Shown here piece by piece: positions 30,957-62,455 of a stretch of 64,000 nt of DNA. The number at the start of each line of letters is the position of its first letter. Within the stretch, counting starts at the first letter, position 1. The stretch covers positions 124,001 to 188,000 of the forward strand of contig JBEWZL010000098.1 in assembly GCA_045837725.1 (NCBI GenBank). The letters run 5' to 3'. Below the pieces are notes generated by a model. The model did not search any database. It worked only from the letters and a program-made list of their open reading frames with translations, and had not been told where the DNA came from. Source of the DNA: Vermamoeba vermiformis. Its lineage: Eukaryota. A program made the position numbers and the translations under genes.

Positions 30957-32530
30957 TTAGAACATCAAGAGAACAGCGCCGAGGATGAACGGCGTGACAC
31001 TCGCTGCAGTGACACGAATGACGCTGCTGGTCTTCTTTGATGGAGTGGCAGCAGGGCACGTCACAGTAGCACTGCACGTGACATCTTTTGCAGCGTAGGG
31101 CCGAGACAAAACAACGGTAGCTTGGTACTTGTTATCCTTGAAGGTCACGTTCTGGTACTGCGCTTCAACCGCACCACAATCAGCATCGTTCTGCGTGTAG
31201 AGGACGAGCTTGTTGATGTCCACAGAGTTGCAGTCATTCAACGTGAGGTCTTTGCACGTCGCGTTAATAGGGTCAACGATGCATCTGGGGAAGTAGTACG
31301 GCAAGCAGTGGTAAAAGCCGCTAATTGATTCGTCCATCTCGCAGCTTACAATTAACGCATCGCCGTTGTTGTTCAGACCAAAACCGTTGCCAAAATAGGC
31401 ATTAGTAGTGTTCGATATTTCAAACCTAATCTTCGCGCTCCACACACCATCAGCGTTGCGTTGGAGCATATAAGCATTTCCGAAAGACCCGGTATCAGCT
31501 TGCACGCCACGTTTGTACGCACGATTCAATTGTCCAGGAGCTCCAACCAAAACGGTGTCTGAGTTAACTATGTAAGAGGTGTACCCGAGATTTGGAGGGT
31601 TAGAATTTCCAACACCAAGATCATCGCCCAAGATGACTTGATACTTCCACACGCCATTGATCTTCGAGATGAACAGGATATAGCCATTGCCAACGTCCAA
31701 ACTGCCGAGACGAGGGTCGTTGGAGTTTGCGCTGAAAAACACCACTGTCTTTTCGTCGACAAGCAACGAGCCTATGCCAAAGCCGGCGAGCACATTGTAG
31801 CTCTCATTGACTTGATGCGAGTCCACAAAGTCCCATTGAAGGCCATTACGTCTGTAGATGAAGAAGGCTCCCGTAGCATTCCAGAACAAGAGATGCGTGT
31901 CGGTGAGGTGCGGCAAAGACACAGGGAATCCATAAGTAATGGCGCTCTCAAAGTCAGTGCGGCGCAAGTCCCAGCCAGTTCCGTTGTAAGTGTAGGTCAG
32001 CAGAAAATCGTTCATACCAATAACTACTGAATCGTCGGCGAGCACTTTGAAAAGTCGCGGAACGCCGAAGCTATCAGCATTGATAAAGCTAACATTTTTC
32101 ATTTGATTGTTGGCATCAAGCTGGAACAAGATGAAAATCGCGACATCCAACTTGCTGCACCACCATTTACCATTGGATGAGGGCACAGAGGGAAGAGTTG
32201 CTGTAAAGTTTGTGGTGTAGTTGAAATATGCGTTATATTTTTGGCTTCCAGCATCGAACTTAAACACAGTCAAGGCGCCATTATTGTCGGTTGTTGCAGG
32301 GGATTTTTGAGCGTTTGCAAAAATATAGTCTCCAATGAAAGAACATTCAGCGATTTTATTCTCAGTGGTTCCGAAGCTTTCGGCTCTCGTCGCACGTTTG
32401 TTGGATGTTAAATCCATAGTCTAAAAATTAAATTATTTTCCACTGCATTTGTGTGTTTGAAGCTTACCTCTATGCAGTAAACATATTCTACCGCTAAAAG
32501 ACATATTACCCATAGCGGATTTAGTCTCAT
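30957..32530 (-). CDS. Secreted/GPI-anchored FG-GAP-like beta-propeller protein
   Basis: Signal-peptide exon at 32530-32468, NLGY..VLVGAPG and YFGNGFGL..ALIVS repeats, a Cys-rich stalk, many N-x-T/S sites and a hydrophobic C-terminus. Confidence 0.7.
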
Positions 32531-32694: not shown

Positions 32695-34141
32695 TTAGTG
32701 GCGATATTTTTTCTTTGATCTGCCTCGGTTCTCATCCTCGTAGTCATCTCGCCCTCGTTTAGTACCAACAGCAGCTGAATAGGGTTCTACAGTCAATACT
32801 CTACCAATAAATAATATTTGCTCCGTCGAATGATGAAACACTATGAACAAAAAAGGACGATCGGCGTTGAACACTTCATAGTCTTTTGGACCGCGACTTC
32901 GACTGCGCACATCAACCTTAGTGACGGCAGCTGCTTTAGTGCCTTCTTCATCGACCTGAATGAACGTGCTGTGAAGTGCTTGTGACACGCAGGATGTATT
33001 TCGTCTTCATAATTATTGTTAGTATGAGCTTGACTGCTTAGAGTAGTTACTTACTCGTGTGTTAATTTGGATAAATCCGCTTTGTCATTATCGAACAAGT
33101 CTTTCAATCCCAATGACTTGAGAAGAGGGATCAGATCATGCAAGCTGTCAAACTTCAATTTAGGAAGCGACAGTTCAACTTTGCTCTTCTTCATTGTGTG
33201 CCTATGCACTGTAAAAAATTCGTGCAAAAAGTGTGCCGATGTTACGTGCTCGAACTCTGTGGTTGTGTTGCTGCTTGGGAGAATGATGAACATGCTCGTG
33301 TCGTCACCCTTGTAAGGCAGTGATATGGCACTAAATTGCAAGGTATTGATTATAGGTACGAAGCACTTTGATGGCTCTAAGTGCATCATGCTCGTTCTAA
33401 CTCTAGAGGCATTATCAAGAGTGCAAAAGTCAGCACCTCTGGTGTCAGTGGCCTCGAACTTGAATTTCCATTCTGCCTCAAAATAGACCGCGTTGAGCTA
33501 ATAATAAACATTAGTAAATTATTGATTTATTAATTAGATGTTCGTACCAGTATCAGCAGTGTTTGTGGATCAATTTGTTGGACTACATTTCGGATGTGGC
33601 CGTCGGTTTTCTGTTCAACCCAGTGGTTGATCCTGTCAATTGACCGCTTATTGTCGCCTATAAAATCGCATGACGATAACTCAGCGTCAACAAACGACTT
33701 CAGCAAAACAGTTTTATAAGCGACATCTAACTTTTTGCGATCTGTCATCCACAAAGAATTAGCTAGCTTAACGACAGCATGAGATTTTTTAATGTTAGTG
33801 AGGAAAGCCTCAACGTGAGCTAAGTAACCTTCGTAAAAACCAAAAACACTCATTAGTTCGTTTCTGGTGTTATTATCTGCTCCCTCAACTAGCATCGCAA
33901 AACCTAGTAGAAAATATTAGTATAATTCAGTAATGGAATTATGATTTTTTAAACAGATTAGGTCGTAAAGTAAAAATAAAATTAATTTTTAATGGATGTA
34001 CTTACAAAGGGCAATACTAATCGGTGCTACACAAATATTGTCTGTACTATTTTTGTTTTTCATAACTTCGAACAAGCGAGTGCCGAATGACATAACACTG
34101 CCCGACAACGAGTTTACACTAGCTTTGTTACTATTATCCAT
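32695..34141 (-). CDS. Serpin (intracellular) with canonical hinge, predicted P1-P1' Arg-Ser, basic C-terminal tail
   Basis: NICVAPISI, INHWVEQKTDGHI, LNAVYFEAEW and VDEEGTKAAAVTKVDVRSRSRGP..FNADRPFLF. Intron positions match the 26100 serpin. Confidence 0.93.
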
Positions 34142-37511: not shown

Positions 37512-40500
37512 ATGAATACCATAACAGACCTTATTCCTCAAGTATCCTCGACAACGAGAAACATTCTCGGGGTGGCGATCGCGTCCGGGTTGGGCCTCGT
37601 TGCGCTCAATAAACTTAGGTCAAATCGGTCGCGACCGAAGAGACTGCCTCGAAGACCAGCAAATAGAGTTGTAAAGAACTCATGCGTCGACCTGGTAGCT
37701 GGATTTGAGCTGGATGCCGACCTTTTGGGCAACAAGGCGTACCATTTGACCAACTTGAAAGCGCTGCAACTCAATGTACCCAATGCATTCGTAGTAACAT
37801 CCGTGGTCTACGAGAGGCACATTGAGCGCTGCAATTGTGACGACTTGATTGCCAGCCTGGCAGACACAAGCTTAAGCGGTAAGATAATTATTATAAAATA
37901 TATACGACAGTAAATTGATTATGTGATTATATAGCACTGATTAAGTTTTTATTCCTAATAAATGCAATAAATTTAAATGTTAAATTTTCAGTGTGTTGAT
38001 GTTATTATTAGATCCTAATCTAAATTAACAGACGCTCAAGTTGAAGAAAATTGTCGTAAAATCAGAGATAGAGTTTTGTCAACGGAAGTCGCGCCAGACT
38101 TACTCGCAGAATGCCAGCAGTTCCTTTCTCAGTTCGAAGGTCCTCTCGGCGTCGCTGTTAGATCGAGTAGCAATCAAGAAGACTCAAAAGGAAAAGCTTT
38201 TGCTGGTCAATTCGAAACTTATTTGAATGTGTCTAAGAATTCTAAAGGTATTTTTTGTTAAGGTCAACTTCAGACCGTAAGACTTGCTCACGATATTTAT
38301 AGATGTTACGGATAAGATCAAGCAAGTATGGGCATCATTATGGACGCCACATGTCATATTATATCGTCGCAAAATGAACTCCAATGAAGTGTCCATTCAC
38401 CCTAAAATGTCCGTGGTCGTGCAAGAGATGGTAGATTCAGCCGTCAGTGGTGTCATATTCAGCGTCAATCCGTTTGGCATGTTCACTGAAGCAATGATCG
38501 AAAGTTACTTCGGTCAAGGCGAGTCACTGGTTTCAGGCGAAATTTCACCGGATCAGTTCATCGTCAACAGAGCTGATCGTAAGATCGTCAAGCAGTCCAT
38601 TGATGTGCATAAGAAGTACGCTATGTACGGTGAGTAATTCTCAAATTGCGGCCTTTGTTCTGCTCTAGGCTAACTTATCGGGAGCTGCAGCGAGCAAAGA
38701 TGGAGGCTTGGTTAAGACAGAACTTTCTCCTTCACTAGCCAAGTCACCTTCATTAACACCTGCGCAAGTGAAGCAACTTGTCGAGCTGGCATTAGAGGTC
38801 GAAAATGAGCTCGAGGCACCTCAAGGTAAGTTTTGTAGCTGGTCGATGAATCACACTCATTCGTTGCAGACATTGAGTTTGCGCTCGACAAGTCAGGCAA
38901 GATTTACTTGTTGCAAGCGAGACCTATCACTACGGGCACGAAGAAGTACTCCTTTTTAAAGGAATGGAAGGCACCAGGCCCTGGTACGTCCTAATGAAAT
39001 TGTCCAAACTGTAACTTATGAGATGGGCATACAGGTGTGTGGACCAAAGAAAATGCGCATCTTAACACGCCTGTCACGCGATTGTATTCCAAGGCAGTGG
39101 AAAAGAATCTGGTGGAAGGCATGCGCTACAGTTCAGCACAGATGTGCGCACCACTGGAAACAATTGAGCAAAAGACCGTCAATGGCTTCGTATATGGTGC
39201 TCCACGTAGTGTCGGCGCACCTCCTAGCGCAAACGGTAAGCGCATACTAATCAAAAGGTGACAAAGTTGACACGTGTCATCGCAGGACCCCCACCAAAAT
39301 GGATCTTTAAAGCACTTGTTCGCATTCACCCCACACTTCGCAAGCGTCTCGCTGGCATTGAAAACGTGTACAAAACCAAGGCTTGGCGCAAACAAATGGA
39401 GTGCTGGCTCAACGAAGACAGAGCTAAGTGCATCGATGGTACACTGGCACTGTCAGCTGTAGATGTCTCTGCACTCTCTGATGACGCGCTGCTAGCTCAT
39501 TTTGTCAAGTGCTACGAGAACGTACGTGACAATATTATTCTCGAGCAGCTAGATTCTAATCGTAGATCAGTGGGGCCTCATGATCTTCCATCATCACAAG
39601 TACACCTTCACCAGCATTACATCTGTCGGAGATTTCTTAGTCCACTTGAAGGAGTGGGGCATCGACTTAATTGACGGCATGCACTTGTTGAGTGGTTTGG
39701 ATCCCATCAGTTACGGGTACGTTAAACACAAGCACAAGGCGGGGTAGCTGACAGCATTATCTGTAGAGTCGAGACATTTGCAGTAGATGACGTATACAAG
39801 TCATTCAAGGAAGATGCCGATGCCCTGCATCTGTTGAAGAACTCCGAAGAAAAGCCAGAAATTGTGCTGGAGAAATTGAGAAACAGATCTGGACCGGTCA
39901 CAGAAGCACTTAAAAAATGTAAGTCAATCACTTGTTCTTGCAGTACATCTGTCTAACTACGACACAAGTCACGCTCCTCGCTGGATTTAGACCGAGCAAG
40001 GGCTACGACATCGACCAGCCAAGCGTCCAAGAAGTGCCGCACTTGTTCTTGGAGGGACTGAGAAAGACGTACGAGTACGGTGCCAAAGAGTTTGTGATCC
40101 CGTCTCCTTCACAAGAAGAAATCAACTCGGTCAGAAATCGCGTGCCGGAGAAAGGTATTATCGAGATTTACTTATTAAGCGTTAGTCTAACCCTGCCAGA
40201 CCGTGCGCTGTTCGACGAATTGCTCGCTGAAGCACAATACATGTACCCGCTCCGCGATCAACGAGCCATGTACGGTGACCTGCTGGCCTGCGGTCCATTG
40301 CGATTTGCAGTGCTTGAGATTGGAAAGAGACTGGTGCAGAAGAAAATACTTCCCAGGGCTGAGGTGCGCCAAAGCAAAATCAGATAAATTCACGAGTACT
40401 AACGCACGATTAGCTGGCTCTGAGTGCGAGTGACGAAGAGCTGACGCTGATGCTGAGCAAGCCCAACGAGGACCATTCAGCCTTGGCAGCACTATTGCAA

Positions 40501-41126
40501 GAATGGGACGAGTACAGACGTACGACTGACCCTGGCACAGTGCCCGAGTTCTTGGGCGGTGTGCCTGCTGAGCCACCTCCAGCTGACTGGTAAGTAAAGA
40601 ACTCTATAAGACAGAGGAAGGTCTAACACGAGTGCTAGGTTCCCCGACCCGTATTCACAACGCATGATGAAAGCCGTCTCGTTAGTTATTCCAATGGTTC
40701 TCAGCGCTGGTCGTCCAAATCCAGCTGGTCAAGCACTGGAAGACAAGAAACTTGTGGGCATTTCAGGGGCACGTGGTGTCGTTGAAGGACGTGTCAAACT
40801 CGTCAAATCATTGGACACGGACCAGCACAACTTCCAGAAAGGAGGTACGAGCTCACCGTATTATGGATAACTTATCTTATATTGACACGAACGTGACAGA
40901 TATCCTCGTGACGTACTGCACGTCATCCTCGTTCTGCTTGTTGCTGTCACAGAGTGCCGCTGTCATCACTGAAGAAGGCGGTGCTTTGTCACACGCAGCA
41001 ATCACCGCACGTGAGCTGCACATTCCTGCCGTGGTGGCTGCTAGGAATGCCATGCAAGTGCTGCAAGACGGCATGTTGGTGCGAGTTGACGGCAATGCTG
41101 GCATCGTGCACATATTGTCAGAATAA
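37512..41126 (+). CDS. PEP-utilising dikinase with rifampicin phosphotransferase/PigC-type domain order (ATP-grasp - substrate domain - C-terminal phospho-His swivel)
   Basis: LGNKA..L, VPNAFVVT, AVRSSSNQED..AFAGQFETYLNV, VVVQEMV, SGVIFS, GQGESLVSG, DIEFA and LLQARPIT, with C-terminal TEEGGALSHAAITARELHIPAVV (His at ~40992); many introns. Confidence 0.85.
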
Positions 41127-44021: not shown

Positions 44022-44915
44022 TTACAATTTTGTCTTCAGTTGTGGTCTGATGCTCGAAATAGAAATGTTGGTTGAAAGCCGCGACACCGTAACATACACT
44101 TCAAGTTTTTTTTCGTTCCAAATCGAACCCAAAAAGGATTCAGCCAATTCCACGTATTCCACGAGATTATTTAAAATTTTAAACATCGTCGCAATTTGAC
44201 AACTACCACTCAAGAAAAAATAGCCAGAATTAATATGTAATGCCGTCAGTGCTCTGACACTAAAACGACACCCGAACCGTACACGAAAAAAAGCCATTGC
44301 CCTGATTTAAATGCCGCATGCGCGCTCACCAACTGCCAAAGCTACTCCCACTACGACGCCAAAAACAATGGAGAGCAAAAAGAAAGGCTCTGGCCTGAAA
44401 GAATATATCAGCAGCTTGCTCCATACCAGAGGAAATTACTAATTTCCGGAAAAAGCCGGACGAAAACGAATCATTCTAAAAAAATACTTACAGACACGAG
44501 GAGCTTGAAGCCGCCAAGTAAATGAACATAGATACTCGAAGCTAACTTCTGTTTTTTTGTCGTTGGTCAGATTTACGTTGAAGCTCGAAATAATCGCGCA
44601 ACTTGTATCAAATAATTTTGAAGAATAAATATCAAAATATTGTGTAATAGTCTTGCGATCTTTGGTCCCCCGGAAATCGAAAAATAAATAATTGTGAAAT
44701 CCAGGCGGAAGATGTGCTGAAACTGAATCTTTGGCATTGTTTGTAGGGTGACGTATCATTTTTGAGTGTATTAATGGTCCAAATATTTTTTGGAAGTACG
44801 CTGCAATTGTTTTGAACGGGATTGCAAGCATTGGTGGCTCGATGCACTTGCCTTCCGCCAGTGTTTCTTCCTCCCACTCCAAGTGCTGAATTTGGTCATT
44901 AGTATTGTCGGCCAT
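44022..44915 (-). CDS. Hypothetical protein
   Basis: A 158-aa ORF can be joined in frame to the downstream ORF at 44022-44297 through two GT-AG introns, one of them only ~28 nt. I recognise no domain. Confidence 0.4.
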
Positions 44916-45321
44916 CGTCCCGACGTGCTTTACAATAAAAATAAATGCGTTGTAATGGACAATTCCAAAAAGCGTAAGTCTTGAAGTGTTTTCGGACTGA
45001 CAGGGAACCTCACGCGAAGTCCTAGTCGAGCTAATACGTACAGTATACCTGCTTCTAACGCAAACGCGATTTTAACATTCCATCTAAATTAATGCCCTTG
45101 TTGCCACTAGATGGGATGAGAAAGTAAGGGTTAATCAACTTTCGTGTGATCTTCGTCTCCATGGCTCTTTAACCACTATTCTGAATGACTCGAATCTAAA
45201 TAAATGCGAAACCAAACAAAGACACATGCCAAACGAATGTAAACCAGTTGGCGCCTTTTTTTAAATTTTCATTTGTCCTCAAACCATCACGTTCGAAGCA
45301 ACAATAGCACGATAATATATC

Positions 45322-46289
45322 ATGGCACTAGATTTGAGTATTACCGCAGCTCAGATCGAATTTCTAGCCGAGGATGAAAAAGTCACGATCATCCCTAACT
45401 TCAAGCTGGATTCAATGGCATTTATCGGGGTAAGTCACTATAAATTAATTTGTAGTGCAGGGATTATAATAGCGAGAAATCACGGCTTTTTTACTCGAAT
45501 TATAAATTTATAATTAACGAAATAATATCGTAGGGCGAGTACGGACCGTTTATCCCTTTAGTGCCCATAGATATTCCATTATGGCTCGCGATTACATTTA
45601 AGAAAAGACAAAAATGTAAAATTAAGCCTCCTGCGTGGTTGTCAGTCGGTATGGGCGCGATCCATTCTCTTTGCTATTATAGAACTCGTATTAATTAATC
45701 TGCAGATCATTTAACCAACGTACTTGCTGCTGAGCGAAAATCAGCGGGCAGTAAAGGCATTTTAACGTTTGAAAAGCTGCCGTTCCATTACATGGAGATC
45801 GCGACACAACTGCTTGATAAGTAAGCCTCAAACACTCGATATTGACTCGAATAGATGTTAATGCTGTGTATATCAGTGCCTCAGATGATATTCCAAATAG
45901 CGAGCGTATTAGAACGCTAATAGAAGACTTGTGGGCTCAACGTAACAACAAGATCCGCGATGGTTTAGCGTCCGGAGTTCAGAGTCAAAATCGCCATTTT
46001 ATTGGTGTAAGTACTTTAATATACAATTCAATGAGAAATATAGAACGTTGCGGGTACTAACAGTGGTTACATCCAGCTCAACGATGTTTGTGCACTTGAA
46101 TTGAACACATTGCGACCACTGCTATTAGAAACGATGAATAAGATGCATGCGCTCGAAGCAGAGTCTACTGGCGTACAATCAGTCAAAAATCCGTTCCAGT
46201 ACACACCTGGATCCGGTTCCTCGCGCGCCACTCAAGGCTCAGCCAGTTCTACTGCTACTCGTCGTTCTGTGCGTCAATTTAACCAGTAA
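45322..46289 (+). CDS. PSF2: GINS complex subunit Psf2
   Basis: [62 protein letters not shown] and ELNTLRP. Confidence 0.95.
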
Positions 46290-46366
46290 TATATATGAAA
46301 CTCATCGCCATATCCGAGTGGATAGTCGGTGCTTGTAAATAGAGAATTATAAAACAATTATTTTTA

Positions 46367-49300
46367 TTATGACGCCCTATTCAACAGCACTAATACCTCT
46401 TTCAATCGCGTGGCCCACACAAAGTCCTCGTTATGCACTTTAATTCCGAGAATTCGGCGCTTATTTTCTTCGGTCATGACGGCGCTGACTTGCTCGCTCG
46501 TCAAATGTCCGAACAAGACTTTCATCAACGAGGCCACTTTGACACGATCTACCAGCCACCAAGGACTAGTCTCGCGTGCATTTATGATGGTCAATAAGTG
46601 GTACTTGGCGTGTACTGAGAGTTGTTGATCTAATTCAGTGAGCAGTTGATGCACCGTGAACACGCTGAATGGACTGAAACACAGCGCAACTGCTGCTTCG
46701 GGCTCATTGTTGTTCAGCCGCAGAACTGTTGCCTTCAACTGCTCGTAGTCTAGTCTCATATTACTGTAGTGAAACATATCGATGAACAGTTGCACAGTGC
46801 GCGTCAAGTCCTGCGACAAGAGCTTCTTGTTGACACGGATCTGATTCTTGTCTGTTGTTCGCAGTGTTTCTTTCAAGGTGTTTACGAGCTGATAATAACT
46901 CTCGTCAAAATCACTCGGCTTATTCTTCTTGGCCCACTCGAGCACCGCATTGGGCAAGTACTTGTTGTCGAGCACTAAATTGCCCGTGCCTTCAGTACTT
47001 TGCTGCGTGATTTGGTTCAACGACGACTCCAACACGCTGCAAATATCTTCGTCGCCCGAGTATATCATCAGTGCCTGTCTCAGACTCTGACTAGCATACG
47101 TCGAGTCCACCAACACTAGACTCTGACTCAAGTACTCGAGACATGTTTGGTACGCGTGCTTTCGACCGTCATAAGGCAGTCCAGGGTGATACAAGCCCAT
47201 GTCAATCACTTCCCAATACAAGTGCTTGACTTGATCCAAGCTAATAGCACTATGTTGTGCCAGAGCGAGTACTATCTGACAGCGCTCTTTTAAGCCAACA
47301 GTTGAATCACCAACCAATTCGAGCAACACTTGTTGACCTGCCTGTTGTAGCTGAAGTAGACCTTAAGGTGTCATTAGATTTAAAATTAATATAAAGCATG
47401 CATACCTCGCAAGTACGATGCTAGCTCTTGATAAGTCACTGACAGCTTGCCAATCAATTTCAACAATCCTTGCTTCACTGCTGGGATGACCTTTGGCTCC
47501 TCAAAACAGCATAATAACTCTGCCAGCCTCGTGTTCTGGTGCTCCGTAATTTCGTACAATCTCAGTAGGGCTCCAAGTGAGCGGTGATCTTTTGAAGTGG
47601 CCAGGAAGTCTTGGACAGTCCGAGCCAGCCAATTGATGTCTTCTCTGCGCTGCAGTGTGCCAAGCTGTTCGTCAATACAGCTCAAGATCACTTCAATGCC
47701 ACTGCGGTCTGTGATTTGACCTGGGCCTGTTATGTTTTCAGTGAAGCACATCTTGACCACAGTCGATATCAATAATTGTTGCAAAGGCTAGACAAAGATC
47801 GTTAGACGACTCCTTTAACTATTTGAACACTAGTACATACCCAATGCAAGGCCAATCTTTTCGAGGTCGTTTGCAAGACCGACATGACAGGTTTCAAGTC
47901 AAACACATCGTCTTCTGGATAAGGACGTGTTTGATACAATTGCACAATCGCTCTCAGTGCTCTAATCGCTGATTGTATAGTGTCGTTTGTCTGTTTAGTC
48001 TTCTGCGTGCTGTTGTTAAGTACGTCCAGCACACTGCTCAGCACGAGCTCTTTCAGTTCTTTCGAGTATCTCAACTCGGAAAAAGGACCAAAATCTCGTT
48101 CGTGACAGATGTACGCGTTCTCGTAGATCTTGCCAATGCCCAACAAACAGCCACTCGCGTGCTCTTGGCTCGACAATTTGTTGACAAGAAAGCGCACTCC
48201 TGATTCAACTCTAGCAGACTGTTAACGGCAGCAAGAAATGAAAGGGAGGCACTTACCCAGTGTGCGCTGAAAACACTTTGAATGCAGGCTCGGACAAATT
48301 GATGTTGTTCTCTTTGTCGTAATATTGCAAATGTTCTGCGCAAAAGTCAGCAATATCTCCGCTGACCTTCCACGACCAAAATATCTCGATGGCACGTGAT
48401 TTGATCTCCATGTCCGTTTGCAGCGGAATCCACTGGAACAACATTGTCTTGACCACCCCATTGTCGGGATAGTTCTTCACTGCCTCGAGACACGACAACA
48501 AGTCACTCTTTGGCATTGACTCTGGGTCATATTTTTCAATCGATTCGAGCACGCTGTCGAGACTCATTTGTTTGCGCGAGATTTGCTGCAACACTTTGCG
48601 CAGTGAATTAGCCATGGCTCTGTCAGTCGTCTTGTCCACAATAGTAGTGATAGCTGACGCTGCTTCTTCACCGTACAGCTCCAAGGCTCTGTAGGGTACT
48701 TTGATGTCGTAGTGCGTCGAGTACAAGAAGTTGATCAGCACTGGCAGCGATGACTTGCTCTTCAGAAGTGCGAGAGCTAGAGCGGCAAGACTCGGGTGAT
48801 AGACAGCCTTCAAGTCAGGGAACATGACTTCGTATTCGAGCAGTGGTACGTCTTCGGGGTACTTGAGGAAGAATCGTGCTGCACGCTCAAAGTCTGCAAG
48901 TTGAGGACCACCTCGTTGACTGAATGACGGACGCGGTTTCTGAATTAGTTAGATAAATCTTAATAATGCATCCATAATATAATATTATATCATACCTCCA
49001 TGCCTAGCCGGAAATTATTATACAATTCCACGTTGCGAAGTTTGATCAACAAGTACTCGCACAACACGCGACACTTGACATCGTCCATATTGAACTCGTC
49101 CTGTTTTTTGACAATTGATTTTGACTGAACGGGCATCGAGGTCCTTTTGAGGCCAGTGAGTTCGTGTTCTAAGGCCTCAACAAATAACGGGCCCTTCGCT
49201 ACATTGTACAGCTCACGTGCCATGTCTCGACCAGTGGACGAGGCACAAATGGCTCTCAATATTACATTCAAATGCTGAAAGAGAATTAGCTAATAAATAC

Positions 49301-51528
49301 CTCATAATAGGTATGGGTATACTCACCGAGAAGTTGTTGTGAAATTGAATGAGGTAATGCGCACAGAAGTAATGCAGTGAATATTCTCCGCTGAAATCTG
49401 AAGGTGCACTCAAGAGTTGTGACATTGTTTCAGCAGGAATGACGTGCACACCAGCACTCAAGCTCAACACAATGGGCGCTAAGTGGTTCAACAGTTCGTG
49501 GCCGTACAGCACTTTTTGCGCGTCTGATTTGGCTGCCAACTGATTCAACTTCTCTGTCAATGAACTGAACAAGGCCTCGCTCTTAGTGGTCGATAAGATG
49601 GACACTTCAATCAGCTTTAATAGCACTTTTAAATCGAGTTTGCTCGAGGCTACTATCGACAGGAAGAACTGTGAAAATATCGTTAGCACTCGGGACCTAA
49701 TTTTAAGAAGATGCGTACCTCTCCTAAGTCCTCATTATGACCGACAAGACTATCTAATATTTTGACTTGCATGTGCGGTGATTCGAGAGTGAATCGCTTG
49801 GCTAACACTTTGCGACCAAACTCATTGACAATGAAGCACGGAGCAGTGGCGGGATTGATCTTTCTGTGCGTCAAAAATGCCTCGCAGTGCAGGTAGAACG
49901 GCACTTTCAATGAAGTCGGGATCACAAAGTCGATTTGATAGCGATGCGAGGCTTGATGGAATGCAACATAGCCCGTGCCATTGACATCTATATATATGAT
50001 ACCAGTTAGTCTTAATGTACGAGTAATGCACAGTCTTACTCATTCTGTGCCGTTCAAGGTAGTCCGTCACTGTTCGATAAAAGTCATGCGCGGCCAGAGC
50101 ACATTCAATCTCGAACAGTACTCCGTGCCCCACGACTTGAGCCATCAAGTTATCAGCGCTAATAATAGATGGTCAGATAACGTCAAAACTCATTGCCGTC
50201 ACCTTACTTTTTGATTGTCTCTTGCAAGAATGGCACTGCCTTGTCTCCGTACTTGATGATTGATCGTCGGATGATGCCAGGTGACAACAATTTGGCTGAA
50301 AATACAGCGGAATTTCTGTACTGTTCGACAGCCACTAACAGTATTTTGAAGATAAATTCGAGACCGGGCATGTGCTGCAATACTCCGAATCCGTTGAAAA
50401 TCGATTCGATCAACAAGTGCTCGCTCGATAATAAATACGCTATATTAGTCTCCATAAATGATTGCAATATCTCTGCATATGAATGACTCGCTAATTCTGG
50501 TCGTTCATTCACTGCTGCAACTACGCGCATGACACGTGTCACTTGCTCGACTGTCATCTTCAACACATTGGATTGAATTATCTGCACTAGATAACTCTTT
50601 TGTGAAGCTATTATATATAACTATTAGTCTCCTTATAGTGGATCATATGCCTTACTTGACAACGCTCGAAACAGAGACTCGTAGGTGTCCATTGAAAGAT
50701 CTGAGTGCGCGAGAGTCCAAACGAAAGTTGGAATAACCTCAGGGTGATTATAGTGCCTTAATATCCTATCAAACACGTCCCAATATACTTCTTGTGGCGT
50801 CATTTCATGGGAATCAAGTGACCGCCCAGTCGATGGATCTATTGGCATCATACACAGTACTCTCGCCAGTACATAGTCGCATGCTAGTCCTGTGCCCGAT
50901 TCTTCATATGGTATGACTGACTTGCCATGCTTGGGTACGATACTTGAATGGAAAGCTACATGCTCGAAATTGTGCTCAAGCATTAGATCTGCATTTAAAA
51001 TCATCGCCTTTATAGCCTTCACTAATAATCTCTCGCGCCAATTCTTTGCCTGCATGCTTTGCGTCAGTATATCGACAATATTTAATCTAAATGCTTACAG
51101 AAAGAAGCTTTTCGTTAAGATAAGGCAAGATCTCTTTTCCTCGGGAAGCAAACAAGTACATTGCTGTATGTAATCCTCGTCCATTGGCACTTGATAATTT
51201 GTTGAATGTAATATCGAGGTCTAAATAATTAATGGATGTTAAATAATTGAGAATACGGCGAAAAATCTTACTCTTTTTTTGAAGCAGGACTTCTTTGACT
51301 TCTGTAGGCAGATTTAACTTCTTAATTTCGTCTGTTGAATATTTGTCGCATATTGCAATCATGCACAGCTCTCGAAGACGAGGCAGAGGCTCTTGTTTTG
51401 ACGGATCTGTCGATTTATCAATACGCAGCGATCACAATTATTTAACCATCATGCTACGCATAACGTGGCTCTTTGTTATATTTCATATTTATTTTGGTTT
51501 GCATTCCTCACTTACTTGTTAGATCCAT
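46367..51528 (-). CDS. Large alpha-helical (HEAT/ARM-like) protein with N-terminal BC-box/SOCS-box-like motif
   Basis: A chain of long same-strand ORFs joined by short GT-AG introns, Leu-rich and helical. The spliced N-terminus reads MDLTNPSKQEPLPRLRELCMIAICDK...LNLPTEVKEVLLQ. Confidence 0.7.
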
Positions 51529-57485: not shown

Positions 57486-57812
57486 CTTTTGTTGTTAGTT
57501 TAAAAACAGCGAGCAATGGTTGTTGTATTTAAAGCTTGGCTAGGCAACTTTTATTTGAATTGAACCGCACAAAATACGAACTGCCAGAAAAAAATCCGAA
57601 CCACACAACGATCACGGTCTTTCCGAGAAGCTTCCTGAAATGGACATGCTACAGAGCACCGGCGAAATGTGACGAACGGAACACCGAATCACTGCGGCAC
57701 TTTGTGAATTTTACCGTTCCGCCCTTTATTACCCGTTTCAATGCATCTTCTTGCATTTATAATCCACCTTTCTAACCCAGTACCACAATAAGCAAGACCC
57801 CTAACAGAACTT

Positions 57813-58397
57813 ATGGAGCACCACAACGCCGCAAGTGTCAAACGAGTTGGAGTGATCATTGGTAGCTCTCGGCCAACACGCAATGGTCACCTGATTGTTG
57901 ACTGGATCCTGAGCGAGATCCAAAGCAAAAACGACGCAATGAGCTTTCACATAATTGACTTAGCAGTGTGGAACTTACCGATGCTAAATGAGCCGGACAT
58001 CCCAGCGCACGGAAAATACTCACAGCCGCACACGATCCGATGGAGTGAAGAGATCAAATCGTACGACGCCTTCATCTTCGTAACACCCCAATATAACTGG
58101 GGCTATCCCGCTGTGCTCAAGAACGCACTCGACTATTTGTACACTGAATGGAACGCTAAGCCTGCTATTGTCATCAGCTACGCACATCGTGGAGGTGGTA
58201 AAGCAGCCGCACAACTGCGACAGGTGATTGAAGGTGGACTGAAGATGAATGTAGTGCAGACCATGCCTGAGATTGTGTTTAAAGAATCCATGCTCGATGA
58301 ACACCGCCACATTAGCACGCCTGGCACGCACTTCGCCCCTTCAGTGCCTGCCATTAATAGCGCCATCGAAGAGCTTAAAAACAAGTTGTTCAAATAA
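57813..58397 (+). CDS. NADPH-dependent FMN reductase (flavodoxin-like, ChrR/SsuE/Lot6 family), intronless
   Basis: IIGSSRPTRNG, FVTPQYNWGYPAVLKNALDYL and EWNAKPA..ISY..RGG. Confidence 0.93.
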   Translation: MEHHNAASVKRVGVIIGSSRPTRNGHLIVDWILSEIQSKNDAMSFHIIDLAVWNLPMLNEPDIPAHGKYSQPHTIRWSEEIKSYDAFIFVTPQYNWGYPAVLKNALDYLYTEWNAKPAIVISYAHRGGGKAAAQLRQVIEGGLKMNVVQTMPEIVFKESMLDEHRHISTPGTHFAPSVPAINSAIEELKNKLFK

Positions 58398-58550: not shown

Positions 58551-60780
58551 CTATTCTGATCTTGTCGGACCTCTGGGCTGTAACAAATTCTTCATGTACT
58601 CGTCGTGGCCGAACATGATAGAGATGTCGTCAATCAACTCGCGCAAGTCACGCTGTTGTGCCGCCAGTGCCTTTTGCATAGCCAGCCATGTTTGTCGCAT
58701 TGACACGAGATTGTTCACTCGAGCTACCAAGTCCATTGGTTGGAAGGGTTTGGCAAGGTAATCTTGCGCACCAGTCATGAGCATATTCACTTTGAGCTCG
58801 TCGTCAGCTTTGGCGGTGAGCATGATGATCGGGATAGCATCTAGTTCGCGACGAGATCGTATCTCCCCGACCATTTCATCTCCTGACATGCGCGGCATCA
58901 TGACATCTGTCACGACACAATCGGGAGTGTGATCAATGACACGTGCCAAGCCTTGCTCTCCATCGAACGCTGAAATGACTCGGAAATGTTCTTCGAGAAT
59001 GCTGGCTATGAATTGATTCATCGTCGGATTATCTTCGACTACCAACACTAATGGCTTCGTTTCTTCTGCTTGAAGAGATGCAATGTCATTCGACTTAACA
59101 GGAGCTGTGTGAGATGACAAGTCTGACACAGCTTGTCGGGCAAAGTCCGCAATGCGAGAGCGCATGTCCGAGTTACTCGACAGATTGCCTCGATTCACGA
59201 CAGCATTGACGACATGAGCACCCTCAGGGGCAGTGCGCGGGAATTGGATCTTCAACAGTGCCCCACCGAGTGACGTGCTGTGCGCGACCTCCACTTGACC
59301 GTTGTGCAGTGTCACTAACTCTTTCACGATAGCCAGACCAAGGCCAGTGCCGCCGTAGTTGCGTGTTGACCCTCCTTCGCCTTGTTGAAATCTGTCAAAT
59401 ATGACTTTCCAGAGCTCTTCTTTGATACCAGGTCCGGAGTCCTCCACGATGATTTCGATCAGTCCTCGAGGTCTACTCTCGCTTGGACCCTCGTGATTGA
59501 CTGAAACGAGCACGTGACCACCTTCAGGAGTGAATTTGAATGCATTCGAGAGTACATTGAGTAAGACACGTTCAACTTTGTCTGCATCCACTTGTGCAGT
59601 CCACGAGCCCTCCACATTGACTTCAAATGTCATCAAACGATTAGACGCTTGTAATTCGAAGTGAGCACAGACTCGGTGAATCAGTTCAGGGAAGTTGAGC
59701 TCTGAATAGCACAACTCGACTCGTCCTGCTTCCAGTTTTGAGATGTCGAGCAAGTCATTTACGTGCTGCATGACGTCAGTATTAGTAAATGACGGAAATT
59801 CTTAGTTTAGGCGGAATAATTATTCCAAAACGCAACTATACCTTTAAAAGGGTGTACGAGTTCATAACAACCGTTTCCAAATTCTTTTGTAATGTTGCGT
59901 CTTCGCGAACTTGTGGCAAGTCGAGCATCTTTTCAACAGGACCAAGAATGAGAGCGAGAGGTGTTCTAAGCTCGTGACTTACATTGGCGATAAATTGACT
60001 TTTTAACTTGTCAAGTTCCTGTCAGTGGTACATTAATACGAAATCGAATCAAATCACGATTGATTCAACTAATTTCGCTATTATACTCGTTGGTAGTTCT
60101 TAACATCTCAATAAATCGAAGCAAGCCGAAAAATAGAGCTCCACTCCGAAAATAAATTTGTGTAATCGGATGTGCTTGTGATAGGTACCTTGACACGTTC
60201 GTATAATGTTCTCAGCTCTTGATTTTTTTGCACTACTTGTGCCTCGGCAATTTTCTTCTCAGTAATGTCGCGACCTTCAGCCAACAAATACAATACTTCA
60301 TTCTTCTCGTTTAGCACTGGACTAAGCGAGAAATCAACTGTAATGATCTCCTCGCCGTGATTGCGCCCCCACGCATCGGCTTCATAGCGGACAAATTGCT
60401 TCGTTTCTATTGCTTGGTAAATTGCTTGGCGTAACTGCTTTGGCGTCTCAGGGTTAATATCCCACCAGTGAGTCTCCCTAGTATTGTATTAATTTTGATG
60501 GTTCACCGCAGCAAGTACACGTGCAGGCTTACCAAAAGAGCTTCCCCACCACATCTGACAACTCCAGGCCTGCTCCCCTGAGCGCAGGCAAGTTTGAAAT
60601 CAATACTCTTCCGTTAACTCCAATTAAAGAAACAAATTGATACATGTGGTCTAAAACGACGCTTGCATAATGCTGCTTCGCTTGTAAACCGATCGCGTCC
60701 TCGGCAGCTTTACTTTGACGCAACCGTCGTATCTCTTCGATCAATTCATCCCGTGACTTATTATCGAAATTATCGTCCAT
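58551..60780 (-). CDS. Hybrid histidine kinase PAS-HisKA-HATPase-REC, TodS/StyS-like
   Basis: Four exons. PAS ([33 protein letters not shown]), H-box [11 protein letters not shown] boxes (NAFKFT, DSGPGI, GTGLGL) and receiver (VEDN..VTDVMMP..LTAK..KPF). Confidence 0.92.
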
Positions 60781-61079
60781 TGTGTTGGTGTTGTGCGGAG
60801 TTTAAAAATAAATGTCAAAAGTAAAAAGTTTAGTTATTGCAACCTTCTGAAAGTTGCTTGTCAATTCTGTGTGCTACGAAATAATCCGTAGGGTAGGGAA
60901 AGGCTCACATAATGATTGTGTGCTATAATATGTGGTAGGAAAACATTGCCCGTCGAGATCCAAGAGTTGTGTTTTCTTATTGCATATTTATTTAAATCAC
61001 AAACAACTAAAACGATTTAAATTGTTTTCTCCGCACTAATTTTAGTTATTATAGAATTATTTTCGCGTTAGTATTCATT

Positions 61080-62455
61080 TTAAGCAAGTTCAACTTCAGC
61101 ACCGATGGCAGTCAGATCCTTCTTCCACTCCTCGGCTTCCTTGGCTGGCAGACCAGAAGCAATAACTTTAGGCAAGTCCTCCACGAGAGGCTTGGACTGT
61201 AATTGCAAAGTGTCGTTAATAACAATTATTACTATAATTGGTTATCAAAATGAAACGGTGGTAAATCACTGCAAAACGAACAAACAGCGAGTGCAGCAAA
61301 CGAGTTACTGGCACAATAAGAGCTCATGAAGCAACACTTACGTCCATGAGGGACATGCCGGGCTTGAGTCGTCGAATCTCCTTCAATACGGTGAATTTAG
61401 CTCCGTCCTTGAACTTGAGCAATTTAACGTCGAATTTAGACTGTTGAGGACCCCTGTAACAAATGCACCAGTCAGTACACTGCGCACACTCCATGCATCG
61501 AGGGCTGCGCGACATTCACGTGTGTCACGTGCACAGAATGCGCTACGTACTTGGCATCCTTGGCGTCCTTCTTCTCAGCAGCGGCGTCCTTGGCAGGAGC
61601 GGCATCAGCTTGAGGAGCTTGAGCGGCAACAGGGGCAGCTTGAGCTGTATAGGAGTGCAGTTAGTATTGAGTACTCGTAAGGCTTCAAGTGGTGTTGGTC
61701 GTTCGAGCTATAATTGGACTCGTGTGCGAATGACTCGTACCTGGAGCAGCGCTGTACATTTGAGGTGAAACACCAGTTCGCTTTTGAAGCTCGTTGCCTA
61801 TTAAAAAAATAAATATTAGACCGTTGTGGATCGGTGGTAGACTGAGTTCAGCAGATTTGTCCGTTTCTTGAGATCGCGCGGTTCATGGTGCCTAATTCAT
61901 GCATAAAACACATAGAAAAAATATGTAAAAATTGTATGCCGATATTACATTTTTAAACCGCGCGATCTCTCCTCAGATTCGAATGCAATCCAAGCTTACC
62001 AAAAGCAATCATTTCAGCCATAGTAAGTTGCATCAACTCGTCCACAAGTTTAGATACACGAGGAGAAACACCGACTTCGTTAGGGTTGCTAGATGGGGGC
62101 ACTACGCTGTCCAATCCATTGGGCTTCATATCAGCAGCCAATTCTGACAAAGGTGTGCTGTGTGGTGAGTTGCTATATAATCTTGTGCTTGTGGCAGCGA
62201 ATAGGCTGTGGAGGTAATAAGCAAGGTTAATACGATTTTTTTTAATCCAGCTAAATAATTAAAATATTGTAATAATTTATAGCAGCCTCCATTCCAATTG
62301 ATAATCCGTATAATTAATGTCCGTCCATAAAATAACACTGTGGTATATTTTTCAAGCGCTAATAGTACAAACCTGACAGATTTGTTTGATTTGAATCCTT
62401 TCTTTTGGCATCGAGCCACTCGCTTAGCGGAGGTTGAAACAATACGATTTAACAT
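61080..62455 (-). CDS. MRPL12: Mitochondrial ribosomal protein L7/L12
   Basis: Arg/Lys-rich presequence, KLVDELMQLT, Ala-rich hinge, FDVKL..F...KFTVLKEIR and LVEDLPKVI....KEAEEWKKDL...GAEVEL. Confidence 0.92.

What the first reader, a model, noticed from the sequence alone, without database searches (positions are those of the whole stretch)
58551..60780. Intron-containing TodS/StyS-like aromatic-hydrocarbon sensor kinase in a eukaryote
Seen: three spliceosomal introns interrupt a PAS-HisKA-HATPase-REC protein. From recall of Pseudomonas TodS PAS1-SK1, it matches segment by segment: YEFVGLLD vs [18 protein letters not shown] vs GKLFWETHWW; EVIAVDFSLLP vs [33 protein letters not shown] vs [37 protein letters not shown] vs [15 protein letters not shown]. 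The aromatic pocket residues (F, FW, WW, F) are kept while a few small positions differ. The protein ends just after the receiver, lacking TodS PAS2-SK2. Inference: a bacterial aromatic sensor was acquired horizontally and trimmed to the eukaryotic hybrid-HK form, which could feed an HPt phosphorelay and sense bacterial volatiles or aromatics.
Basis: partly seen in the sequence, partly recalled or inferred. Interest (0 to 1): 0.8.

Follow-up and report, generated by a model that had tools for sequence, protein, structure and literature searches.

The report
TodS-type sensor kinase in a eukaryote
A spliced, expressed eukaryotic gene encodes a soluble sensor kinase whose sensing domain closely resembles the toluene-binding domain of the bacterial kinase TodS; it belongs to an older, amoeba-type family of such kinases, not a one-off recent capture.

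Summary
A four-exon, minus-strand gene (60780..58551, three GT-AG introns) encodes a 642-aa PAS-HisKA-HATPase-REC protein with all catalytic motifs present. Exon 2 matches the solved TodS PAS1 domain (E 5e-20). An AlphaFold model of the 83%-identical orthologue's PAS has TodS PAS1 as its six best PDB matches. Nine of the 12 TodS pocket residues are kept; G48, V59 and I114 become Ser, Ser and Ala. Introns 1 and 3 are spliced out in public contigs. All three junctions agree with an intron-less orthologue.

This is not a private, recent acquisition. At least five further lineages, 40-83% identical, share the truncated form and its tail. Several appear as exon-sized fragments on 150-560 kb contigs, and one shares the site of intron 3. 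In a tree, five single-kinase rows (four lineages, one of them this gene) group with two EukProt dual kinases, one labelled as from a dictyostelid (bootstrap 95). That clade sits among long, mostly unlabelled double-kinase proteins; the few that carry names are bacterial. So the bacterial ancestry is old and the trimming probably happened inside eukaryotes. The ligand, the HPt partner and the host organism are unknown. Interest is moderate.

The parts
60533..60780 (-). Exon 1. ATG at 60780; residues 1-82 plus two bases of codon 83. N-terminal helix and first half of the PAS domain (F49, S51, S62, A66, F82).
   Evidence: matches TodS PAS1 chain residues 5-41, E 0.011
60478..60532 (-). Intron 1, 55 nt, GT..AG. 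It splits the PAS domain inside the Trp83 codon.
   Evidence: a contig of run X1 skips these 55 nt; junction agrees with P0001
60189..60477 (-). Exon 2. Residues 83-179: second half of the PAS domain (W87, W88, A118, V130, F132, A149, G151) and the helix that leads to the kinase.
   Evidence: TodS PAS1 5hwv/5hwt E 5e-20; pocket table
60019..60188 (-). Intron 2, 170 nt, GT..AG.
   Evidence: no read or contig covers it; supported by reading frame, by colinearity with P0001, and by P0023, whose ORF begins just upstream of the same junction
59842..60018 (-). Exon 3. Residues 180-238: HisKA/DHp with the phospho-accepting His194 (codon 59976-59974).
   Evidence: Pfam HisKA 5e-10; motif positions
59766..59841 (-). 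Intron 3, 76 nt, GT..AG, directly after ..TLLK.
   Evidence: a contig of run X18 skips exactly 59766-59841; RNA reads of X21 at 90-95% likeness show a joint at the same place; fragment P0320 of a 43%-identical family member breaks at the same site
59235..59588 (-). HATPase_c catalytic domain, residues 298-415. N-box at 310, G1 at 347, F at 361, G2 at 376.
   Evidence: Pfam 6e-25; motifs
58713..59048 (-). Receiver domain, residues 478-589. Acidic pair E482-D483, phospho-accepting Asp525 (codon 58907-58905), T555, K577.
   Evidence: Pfam Response_reg 4e-27; motifs
58551..58712 (-). C-terminal tail, residues 590-642, and the stop codon. The first part is the post-receiver linker helix shared with the long double-kinase relatives. 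The last ~20 residues (..[18 protein letters not shown]..) are shared only by the truncated eukaryote-type family.
   Evidence: tail HMM: long double-kinase relatives match HMM positions 1 to 38-45 only, eukaryote-type proteins match to position 49-65; no Pfam family
58551..59765 (-). Exon 4, residues 239-642 plus stop.
   Evidence: P0019 (406 aa, 99% identical) is this exon's ORF from a Logan contig

Best explanation
This is a working, expressed gene for a soluble hybrid histidine kinase of the TodS family, long resident in a eukaryotic lineage that is probably amoebozoan.

How it most likely works (inferred):
1. A small hydrophobic, probably aromatic, membrane-permeant molecule enters the buried aromatic cage of the N-terminal PAS domain (F49, F82, W87, W88, F132).
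2. The change passes down the C-terminal PAS helix into the DHp helices.
3. His194 is autophosphorylated by the HATPase domain.
4. The phosphoryl group moves to Asp525 of the protein's own receiver.
5. Because the second kinase module of TodS is missing, it leaves the protein through a separate HPt protein to the host's response regulators.

History (inferred from the tree and the intron pattern): a double kinase of bacterial TodS type (PAS-HK-REC-...-HK2) entered an ancestor of this eukaryotic group. It persists as dual kinases in two EukProt records, one labelled from a dictyostelid. In a sister branch it lost everything after the receiver linker, gained introns and diversified.

Ser51, Ser62 and Ala118 replace TodS G48, V59 and I114 in the part of the pocket that holds the substituent of the ring. 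The ligand is therefore probably not toluene itself, and may carry a polar group.

Shown: gene structure, splicing of introns 1 and 3, domain order, intact motifs, and TodS-type sequence. A TodS-type fold is shown for the orthologue's PAS. The tree shows a clade with eukaryotic relatives.
Inferred: ligand class, kinase activity, HPt relay, direction and age of the transfer.
For: Gene and splicing:
- Four exons, three GT-AG introns, one open 642-aa frame.
- Spliced contigs for introns 1 and 3, plus a few RNA-seq reads on exons 3-4.

TodS PAS1 likeness:
- By sequence, E 5e-20 and 0.011.
- By fold, an AF2 model of the orthologue's PAS has pLDDT 93. Its six best PDB hits are all TodS PAS1: E 3.5e-14 to 3.6e-12, target TM 0.84-0.92, 41-44% identity. 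The next hit is NifL at 2.2e-8.
- 9 of 12 pocket residues are kept. The two Ser are found only in the window protein and P0001 among the 32 sequences compared.

Intact kinase: H-box, N, G1, F and G2 boxes and the receiver D/T/K are present. No 19-residue window is hydrophobic enough for a membrane span (maximum Kyte-Doolittle 1.36).

Family and history:
- 43-48% identity over about 560-620 residues to 800-1600-aa proteins with two kinase modules.
- Truncated relatives occur in at least five further lineages, with exon-sized fragments on 150-560 kb contigs and full lengths on 2-7 kb contigs.
- The intron-3 site is shared with the P0315 lineage.
- Tree of 58 rows x 551 columns: the 7 eukaryote-labelled rows form one clade (UFBoot 95, SH-aLRT 90, 96% of 200 bootstrap trees). 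The 5 single-kinase rows form a clade at 100/99.
- Codon GC3 is 0.41-0.52, within the neighbours' 0.41-0.61.
Against: - No ligand, kinase activity or partner was tested.
- The aromatic cage (F46, W84, W85 in TodS numbering) is kept in nearly all 32 family members compared, most of unknown function, so it does not by itself predict aromatic sensing.
- In TodS, every tested pocket substitution except I114V abolished signalling at the usual dose (PMC4861429, passages). The three changed positions may therefore mean a quite different ligand, or none.
- The fold model is of the orthologue P0001, not of the window protein.
- Only a handful of the 51 non-eukaryote rows in the tree carry a name. The three family proteins whose names I looked up are bacterial (Alloalcanivorax, a Cytophagaceae MAG, a Leptolyngbyaceae MAG). 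The bacterial nature of the rest is inferred from architecture and contig type.
- The eukaryotic clade could be helped by shared odd composition: P0139, P0025 and P0026 are flagged. A simple LG+G4 model was used, and the bootstrap had not fully settled (correlation 0.988).
- Where the clade sits inside the radiation is unresolved (AU p 0.081 for a forced union with the TodS-proxy clade).
- Intron 2 has no read support.
- No HPt or response-regulator gene was seen among the window's ORFs of 85 aa or more, and the genome could not be searched.
Confidence: 0.7

Rival explanations
1. A recent, lineage-specific horizontal transfer of a bacterial aromatic-hydrocarbon sensor into this genome, trimmed afterwards.
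For: The non-eukaryote-labelled relatives reach 43-48% identity over the whole length. The PAS is TodS-like. An intron-less FMN-reductase gene of a family common in bacteria lies 150 bp away.
Against: The closest non-eukaryote-labelled sequence among 1.84 billion representatives is below 50% identical. Eukaryote-type relatives with the same truncation and tail exist at 83, 66 and 40-46% identity. The intron-3 site is shared with a 43%-identical member. Codon composition matches the neighbours. The tree gives one eukaryotic clade that includes two EukProt dual kinases.
Confidence: 0.07
2. Bacterial contamination or a chimeric assembly: the kinase is not part of the eukaryotic chromosome.
For: The best annotated matches are bacterial-type kinases, and automatic names such as 'CheY-like chemotaxis protein' were given to its exon ORFs in metagenomes.
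Against: Three GT-AG introns interrupt the frame, so no bacterial reading gives the protein. Public contigs carry the spliced form. Flanking genes on both sides are intron-bearing eukaryotic genes on the same contig. Composition matches them.
Confidence: 0.01
3. An anciently vertical eukaryotic kinase: the family was in the eukaryotic stem, and the bacterial look reflects the common origin of all two-component kinases, not transfer.
For: The family is old inside eukaryotes (several lineages, shared intron site). Dual kinases are reported from Amoebozoa, fungi, Capsaspora and a streptophyte alga (PMC6324907, passages).
Against: The seven eukaryote rows form one shallow-rooted branch among 51 other rows, mostly 800-1600-aa double kinases, spread over many deep branches. 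Identity to those proteins is 43-48% across PAS, kinase and receiver alike. I could not add the fungal, plant or D. discoideum kinases, so this test is incomplete.
Confidence: 0.12
4. A kinase whose PAS no longer senses a ligand. It would serve as a constitutive kinase or phosphatase or as a dimerisation module, with the Ser/Ser/Ala changes having closed or spoiled the pocket.
For: Three pocket positions differ from TodS, and in TodS nearly all tested pocket changes stopped signalling. One family member (P0315) has lost the WW pair.
Against: The aromatic cage and the PAS-to-DHp helix are kept between the window protein and P0001 (86% identity in exon 2). The model of P0001's PAS is confident throughout the core. 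Both Ser are conserved in the two orthologues, which is what a maintained specificity would look like.
Confidence: 0.1

Closest known systems
TodS of Pseudomonas putida (and the TmoS/StyS-type double sensor kinases); PAS1 structures 5HWT, 5HWV, 5HWW
   Same: Same order PAS1-HisKA-HATPase-receiver. PAS1 is alike in sequence (E 5e-20), and the orthologue's PAS is alike in fold (target TM 0.84-0.92, 41-44% identity). 9 of 12 pocket residues are the same, including the aromatic cage. The protein is soluble. A TodS-family proxy of the same 978-aa length (P0274, Alloalcanivorax) is 39% identical over 592 residues.
   Different: No PAS2 and no second kinase, so no internal His-Asp-His relay. G48, V59 and I114 are replaced by Ser, Ser and Ala. 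The gene has three introns. It is not next to a TodT-type regulator or catabolic genes. In the tree it is not specifically sister to the TodS-proxy clade, although that placement is not rejected (p 0.081).
Amoebozoan dual histidine kinases: EukProt proteins P0142 (labelled Synstelium polycarpum, 1622 aa) and P0139 (1187 aa). They may belong to the 'DhkD branch' of Kabbara et al. 2018, but that was not tested.
   Same: They are the sister group in the tree, 43-44% identical to the window protein. They share the N-terminal helix and the TodS-type PAS; P0142's pocket positions are hydrophobic with the full aromatic cage (P0139's were not tabulated). They have the same HK-REC core.
   Different: They keep the second HisKA-HATPase; Pfam finds two receivers in P0142 (P0139 was not scanned), plus an Exo_endo_phos domain there. 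The window protein stops after the first receiver's linker. Whether they are orthologues of D. discoideum DhkD was not tested, because no DhkD sequence was available to me. The DhkD paper describes extracellular PAS/PAC domains and one membrane span (PMC3783435, passage), which the proteins here lack.
Canonical eukaryotic hybrid histidine kinases (plant, fungal and amoebozoan HK-REC proteins that signal through HPt)
   Same: Kinase plus C-terminal receiver in one chain. The expected output is through an HPt protein.
   Different: The sensor is a TodS-type PAS1. I found no description of that in eukaryotic kinases: 'TodS', 'toluene' and 'aromatic' occur 0 times in the main text of the eukaryote-wide survey PMC6324907.

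Membership tests
TodS-like double sensor kinases (TodS/TmoS/StyS type) | N-terminal PAS1 of the TodS type (fold and hydrophobic aromatic pocket) | tested here: met
   phmmer against PDB: 5hwv/5hwt E 5e-20 and 0.011. Foldseek: the top six hits are TodS PAS1 (the model is of orthologue P0001). 9 of 12 pocket residues are identical.
TodS-like double sensor kinases (TodS/TmoS/StyS type) | First kinase module with phospho-accepting His and complete ATP-binding boxes | tested here: met
   HisKA 5e-10 and HATPase_c 6e-25. H194 and the N, G1, F and G2 boxes are present.
TodS-like double sensor kinases (TodS/TmoS/StyS type) | Internal receiver domain after the first kinase | tested here: met
   Response_reg 4e-27. 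D525, T555 and K577 are present.
TodS-like double sensor kinases (TodS/TmoS/StyS type) | Second sensor/kinase module (PAS2-HK2) that completes the internal His-Asp-His relay | tested here: not met
   The protein ends 53 residues after the receiver. The tail has no Pfam match. Only about 150 bp separate the stop from the next gene.
TodS-like double sensor kinases (TodS/TmoS/StyS type) | Binds mono-aromatic hydrocarbons and controls a catabolic operon through a TodT-type regulator | not testable with these tools
The neighbouring genes are an FMN reductase and an L7/L12-like gene, not a regulator or catabolic genes.
Eukaryotic hybrid histidine kinases | HisKA-HATPase followed by a receiver in one chain, encoded by a nuclear spliced gene | tested here: met
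Eukaryotic hybrid histidine kinases | HPt protein and response regulators in the same genome | not testable with these tools
   No genome is held for this window. None was seen among the window's ORFs of 85 aa or more.
Amoebozoan dual histidine kinases | Two kinase modules and two receivers in one chain | tested here: not met
   The window protein has one of each. The sister protein P0142 has two of each.
Amoebozoan dual histidine kinases | Common descent with named amoebozoan dual kinases | tested here: inconclusive
   One clade with EukProt P0142 and P0139, UFBoot 95 / SH-aLRT 90. However, the model was simple, composition flags were raised, and D. discoideum DhkD and the Physarum and Acanthamoeba sets were not in the tree.

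The most novel reading that the evidence does not exclude
The TodS-type PAS kinases of this eukaryotic clade, both the single-kinase form found here and the dual kinases seen in dictyostelid-type records, are cytosolic receptors for membrane-permeant aromatic small molecules. Candidates are the organism's own phenolic or polyketide signals, or aromatics released by prey bacteria. In the window lineage, the two serines that replace G48 and V59 in the substituent subsite would tune the pocket to a ring that bears a polar group. If so, a bacterial pollutant sensor became a eukaryotic chemoreceptor, and the family would offer candidate receptors for amoebal aromatic signals whose receptors, by my recall, are still unknown.
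Probability: 0.2. Interest if true: 0.75.

Novelty: new variant of a known kind. Interest (0 to 1): 0.45.

Why it matters
Ligands are known for very few eukaryotic histidine kinases. Here the sensor domain has a solved, ligand-bound bacterial counterpart at 41-44% identity, with a defined 12-residue pocket. That makes ligand class and specificity directly testable by binding assays and pocket swaps.

The finding also links two things I did not find connected in the searched literature: the 'dual' histidine kinases reported from amoebae, and the bacterial TodS-type double kinases. The searches were TodS with eukaryote/HGT terms, TodS with Dictyostelium (one paper, which makes no link), the eukaryote-wide kinase survey, and the DhkD paper.

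It also gives a worked case of how a bacterial internal phosphorelay protein can be cut down to the hybrid form that eukaryotic HPt relays use.

On the other side, amoebozoan genomes are already known to hold dozens of bacterial-type kinases (14-51 per species, PMC6324907). One more of bacterial ancestry is therefore not in itself surprising.

Tried and rejected
- Own genome search: none is held for this window. HPt, response-regulator and paralogue counts were therefore impossible.
- RNA holders: 'no RNA holder listed' for the stretch. I laid two labelled RNA-seq runs and two contig runs instead.
- Naming the organism failed.
  - No Rfam family matched in the window.
  - A protein-atlas query with the trehalose-phosphatase exon gave only broad taxa.
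  - The KDEL-receptor exon gave a single hit, 55% identical, which EukProt labels as Cochliopodium minus. That is a weak hint of Amoebozoa only.
  - A kinase ORF followed by an SH2 ORF (12697-14285) recalls amoebozoan SH2 kinases, but I did not show that they are one gene.
- The genome-contig scan and the metagenome-contig scan used generic peptide patterns. They returned only relatives of 45% identity or less, and none of the close eukaryote-type loci, so I never saw the DNA of the orthologues. Their intron positions are inferred from protein fragments.
- Remnant of the second kinase's H-box in the tail (..[10 protein letters not shown].. against ..MLGHELRNPL.. of P0013): rejected as unsupported.
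  - The long double-kinase relatives match the tail HMM only up to positions 38-45.
  - Pfam finds nothing in the tail.
  - The His is not kept in P0026 or P0315.
- Viral vector: the viral-contig scan found only 22-36% matches to the kinase/receiver part, and none covering the PAS.
- Protein atlas with the PAS-HisKA part of P0001: only generic bacterial PAS-HisKA clusters.
- Specific sisterhood with the TodS-proxy clade: not in the best tree, but not rejected either (p 0.081).
- Co-transfer of the neighbouring FMN reductase: not examined beyond Pfam.
Full report
**1. What is in the sequence**

The finding's coordinates are exact. On the minus strand an ATG at 60780 opens a frame that is interrupted three times and ends at a stop at 58553-58551.
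- Exons: 60780-60533, 60477-60189, 60018-59842 and 59765-58551.
- Introns: 55, 170 and 76 nt, each starting GT and ending AG. Their G+C is 36-42%, against 47.7% for the coding sequence.
- Joined inside a script, the exons give 1929 nt with one terminal stop, or 642 residues.

Pfam finds HisKA in exon 3, and HATPase_c and Response_reg in exon 4. There is a sub-threshold PAS match in exon 2. On the full-length orthologue P0001, PAS_9 and PAS_4 stay just below their curated cut-offs (26.8 against 27 bits, 22.7 against 23.1), while HisKA, HATPase_c and Response_reg are clear.

All catalytic landmarks are present: His194 in SHELRTPL, the N, G1, F and G2 boxes, and receiver E482-D483, D525, T555 and K577. 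No segment is hydrophobic enough for a membrane span.

**2. Is it spliced and expressed?**

- A contig of run X1 joins 60476 to 60532, skipping the 55 nt of intron 1.
- A contig of run X18 joins 59765 to 59842, skipping exactly intron 3. The skipped ends read CT..AC on the plus strand, which is GT..AG on the gene's strand.
- Both runs are only guessed to be RNA.
- Two labelled RNA-seq runs gave few reads: 9 and 6 laid. X19 has reads at 99% or more likeness on exons 3-4. X21 has five reads, 90-95% alike, with a joint at the intron-3 place. I take those to come from a close relative or allele.
- Intron 2 was not covered.

All three junctions are confirmed independently by P0001 (643 aa) and P0002 (652 aa). 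These are uninterrupted proteins from short contigs, 82.6% identical to the spliced protein from residue 1 to 639, and they read straight through ..GKLFWETHWW....YERIKELDKLK.. and ..TLLKHVNDLL...

The flanks are eukaryotic. The window holds SH2, protein kinase, DEP, F-box, fasciclin, two serpin genes, VIT/VWA, KDEL receptor, UTP15, QPRTase and a TPS/TPP fusion, all in pieces as expected of intron-bearing genes. The kinase's third-position G+C (0.41-0.52 by exon) lies within the neighbours' range of 0.41-0.61. Contamination or chimerism is excluded.

**3. Is it TodS-like?**

Yes.
- Exon 2 matches the solved TodS PAS1 chain (5HWV/5HWT) at E 5e-20 over 87 residues, and exon 1 matches its first 37 residues at E 0.011. 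Nothing else in the PDB comes near; the next hit is at E 0.038.
- I folded residues 33-179 of the orthologue P0001 with a 42-row alignment (mean pLDDT 93). I used P0001 because I could not hand the joined window protein to the tool. The model's six best PDB matches are the six TodS PAS1 chains: E 3.5e-14 to 3.6e-12, target-normalised TM 0.84-0.92, rmsd 1.3-3.2 Å, 41-44% identity. NifL and LOV domains follow from E 2.2e-8.

The TodS structure paper (PMC4861429; I read passages found by term search) names twelve pocket residues. I mapped them through P0274, a 978-aa protein of Alloalcanivorax profundimaris (name) that aligns residue for residue (43-168) with the TodS chain. The window protein has:

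| TodS residue | Window residue |
|---|---|
| F46 | F49 |
| G48 | S51 |
| V59 | S62 |
| A63 | A66 |
| F79 | F82 |
| W84 | W87 |
| W85 | W88 |
| I114 | A118 |
| V126 | V130 |
| F128 | F132 |
| A145 | A149 |
| G147 | G151 |

That is 9 of 12 kept. The same paper says G48, V59, A63 and A145 surround toluene's methyl group. The two serines are therefore in the substituent subsite. Among the 32 sequences compared, only the window protein and P0001 have Ser at either position.

A caution: F46 and W84 are invariant and W85 nearly so across those 32 sequences. The cage marks the family, not toluene sensors in particular.

**4. Relatives, and a change of picture**

A phmmer search of 1.84 billion cluster representatives with P0001 gave, after its own fragment, only proteins of 33-49% identity. 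Most are 800-1600 aa, with two or more matched stretches, and aligned from about residue 30 to 620. By BLASTP the window protein is 43-48% identical to them over about 560-620 residues. Those I scanned have PAS-HisKA-HATPase-REC followed by PAS and a second kinase of HisKA, HisKA_2/HWE or HisKA_3 type.

Closer to home there is a set of proteins with the same short architecture and the same C-terminal tail (..ELIDDI..F.HD..). They were found with the exon-4 search and a tail HMM.
- P0019: 99% identical, this species' exon 4.
- The P0001/P0020-22 group: 81% on exon 4.
- P0023: 66%, 480 aa, with exons 3 and 4 fused.
- P0025 (622 aa) and P0026 (654 aa): 44-46% over the whole length.
- P0315/P0038 (712 aa): 43%.
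- P0095: 40%.

Cluster listings show a telling pattern. Full-length forms sit on contigs of 2-7 kb, while fragments of 67-198 aa (383 aa for P0095's cluster) sit on contigs of 150-560 kb. Mapping the fragments shows that they break where the full-length protein continues. The piece then runs on as ..|GKPV..|VSTSS or ..|VSYI, which is what a GT donor read through looks like. One break, after ..ILLK in P0320, is at the very site of the window's intron 3. These are therefore intron-bearing eukaryotic genes too, and at least one intron predates the split of lineages that are now 43% identical.

Two of the long relatives come from EukProt. P0142 (1622 aa) is labelled Synstelium polycarpum, which I recall to be a dictyostelid social amoeba. 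P0139 (1187 aa) has no species printed but contains long Gln/Asn runs. P0142 has two HisKA, two HATPase and two receiver domains plus an Exo_endo_phos domain.

**5. Trees**

A quick tree of 80 full-length rows placed the window protein, P0001, P0025 and P0026 in one clade (SH-aLRT 99). That clade lay inside a 52-row clade that also holds the TodS proxy P0274. For this tree I kept rows whose best BLAST segment covered query residues 60 or lower to 570 or higher, and dropped four near-duplicates: P0002, P0304, P0300 and P0302.

A careful IQ-TREE run followed, on 58 rows x 551 columns under LG+G4. The rows were the 33-row neighbourhood, the other members of the 52-row clade, four outgroup rows, and P0139 and P0315. 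Results:
- All seven eukaryote-labelled rows form one clade, with UFBoot 95 and SH-aLRT 90, present in 96% of 200 bootstrap trees.
- The five single-kinase rows form a clade at 100/99.
- The two dual kinases are its sister.

Caveats:
- The bootstrap had not quite settled (correlation 0.988).
- Composition flags were raised for P0139, P0025 and P0026, among others.
- The other 51 rows are mostly unnamed.

Forcing the eukaryotic clade together with the eight-row TodS-proxy clade costs 55 log-likelihood units but is not rejected (AU p 0.081). The exact bacterial neighbours therefore remain open.

**6. Reading**

The simplest account has four steps.
1. A bacterial TodS-type double kinase was acquired by an ancestor of a eukaryotic group that includes dictyostelids.
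2. It is retained there as a dual kinase.
3. In a sister branch everything beyond the post-receiver linker was lost.
4. That branch gained introns and diversified, and the window's gene is one member.

The tail supports this. The long double-kinase relatives match its first 38-45 positions (receiver helix 5 and the linker) and no further, while the last ~20 residues are special to the truncated family.

The truncation turns an internal His-Asp-His relay into an ordinary hybrid kinase that needs an external HPt. That last point follows from established knowledge of TodS and of eukaryotic phosphorelays. It is an inference here, because no genome was available to look for HPt.

**7. What is known**

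- The eukaryote-wide survey of sensor kinases (PMC6324907; term search of the main text) mentions TodS, toluene and 'aromatic' 0 times. It does report dual kinases in Amoebozoa that 'cluster with the DhkD branch', and 14-51 kinases per amoebozoan genome.
- The DhkD paper (PMC3783435; passages) describes two kinase and two receiver domains with PAS/PAC domains, and does not mention TodS.
- The only paper in the library holding both 'TodS' and 'Dictyostelium' (PMC4558063; passages) does not connect them.
- A search for TodS with histidine kinase, horizontal gene transfer and eukaryot* listed four papers, none of which, by title and abstract, is on this topic.
- I did not see the supplements of these papers.

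Eukaryotic hybrid kinases of bacterial type are well known in amoebae. A TodS-type PAS1 sensor in them, and the single-kinase offshoot found here, I did not find described.

**8. Verdict**

TodS-family ancestry and loss of PAS2-HK2 hold. 'Freshly acquired and trimmed here' does not. Aromatic or volatile sensing remains a testable hypothesis.
- I rate it a new variant of a known kind, of moderate interest.

Noticed in passing
window 57792-58397 (+): A single uninterrupted ORF encodes an NADPH-dependent FMN reductase (Pfam FMN_red 1.2e-33). It converges on the kinase gene, with only about 150 bp between the two stop codons. An intron-less gene of a family common in bacteria beside a kinase of bacterial ancestry; its origin was not examined.
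   Followed up: no
window about 60967-61520 (-): An intron-bearing gene whose last exon ends ..EEWKKDLTAIGAEVELA. This resembles ribosomal protein L7/L12 by my recall and was not tested. Five RNA reads of run X19 end at 60967 with a run of T on the plus strand, which fits a poly(A) site for this minus-strand gene.
   Followed up: partly
window 26375-27798 (+) and 32698-33916 (-): Two three-exon serpin genes in opposite orientation flank a VIT/VWA gene (27906-30369, -) and a 487-aa ORF with no Pfam match (30960-32420, -).
   Followed up: no
window 12697-14285 (+): A protein-kinase ORF is followed about 750 bp downstream by an ORF carrying an SH2 domain. Kinase-then-SH2 is the order I recall for amoebozoan SH2 kinases. 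I did not show that they form one gene.
   Followed up: no
window 38281-41123 (+): Exons with PPDK_N (2.9e-26) and the PEP-utilizers mobile domain (6.3e-22) point to a pyruvate/PEP dikinase-type enzyme. Its origin was not examined.
   Followed up: no
window 44442-51094 (-): A run of long minus-strand ORFs (210, 331, 231, 172 and 153 aa, among others) has no Pfam family. It may be one large gene of unknown kind.
   Followed up: no
window 7611-10505 (+): A trehalose-6-phosphate synthase / trehalose-phosphatase fusion gene in at least four exons.
   Followed up: no
protein P0315 (712 aa; related family member, not in the window): This member of the truncated family has lost the WW pair of the PAS pocket (..GMHFWNGLSFKPF..) and carries a long acidic C-terminal extension. 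Not all members can share one ligand.
   Followed up: partly
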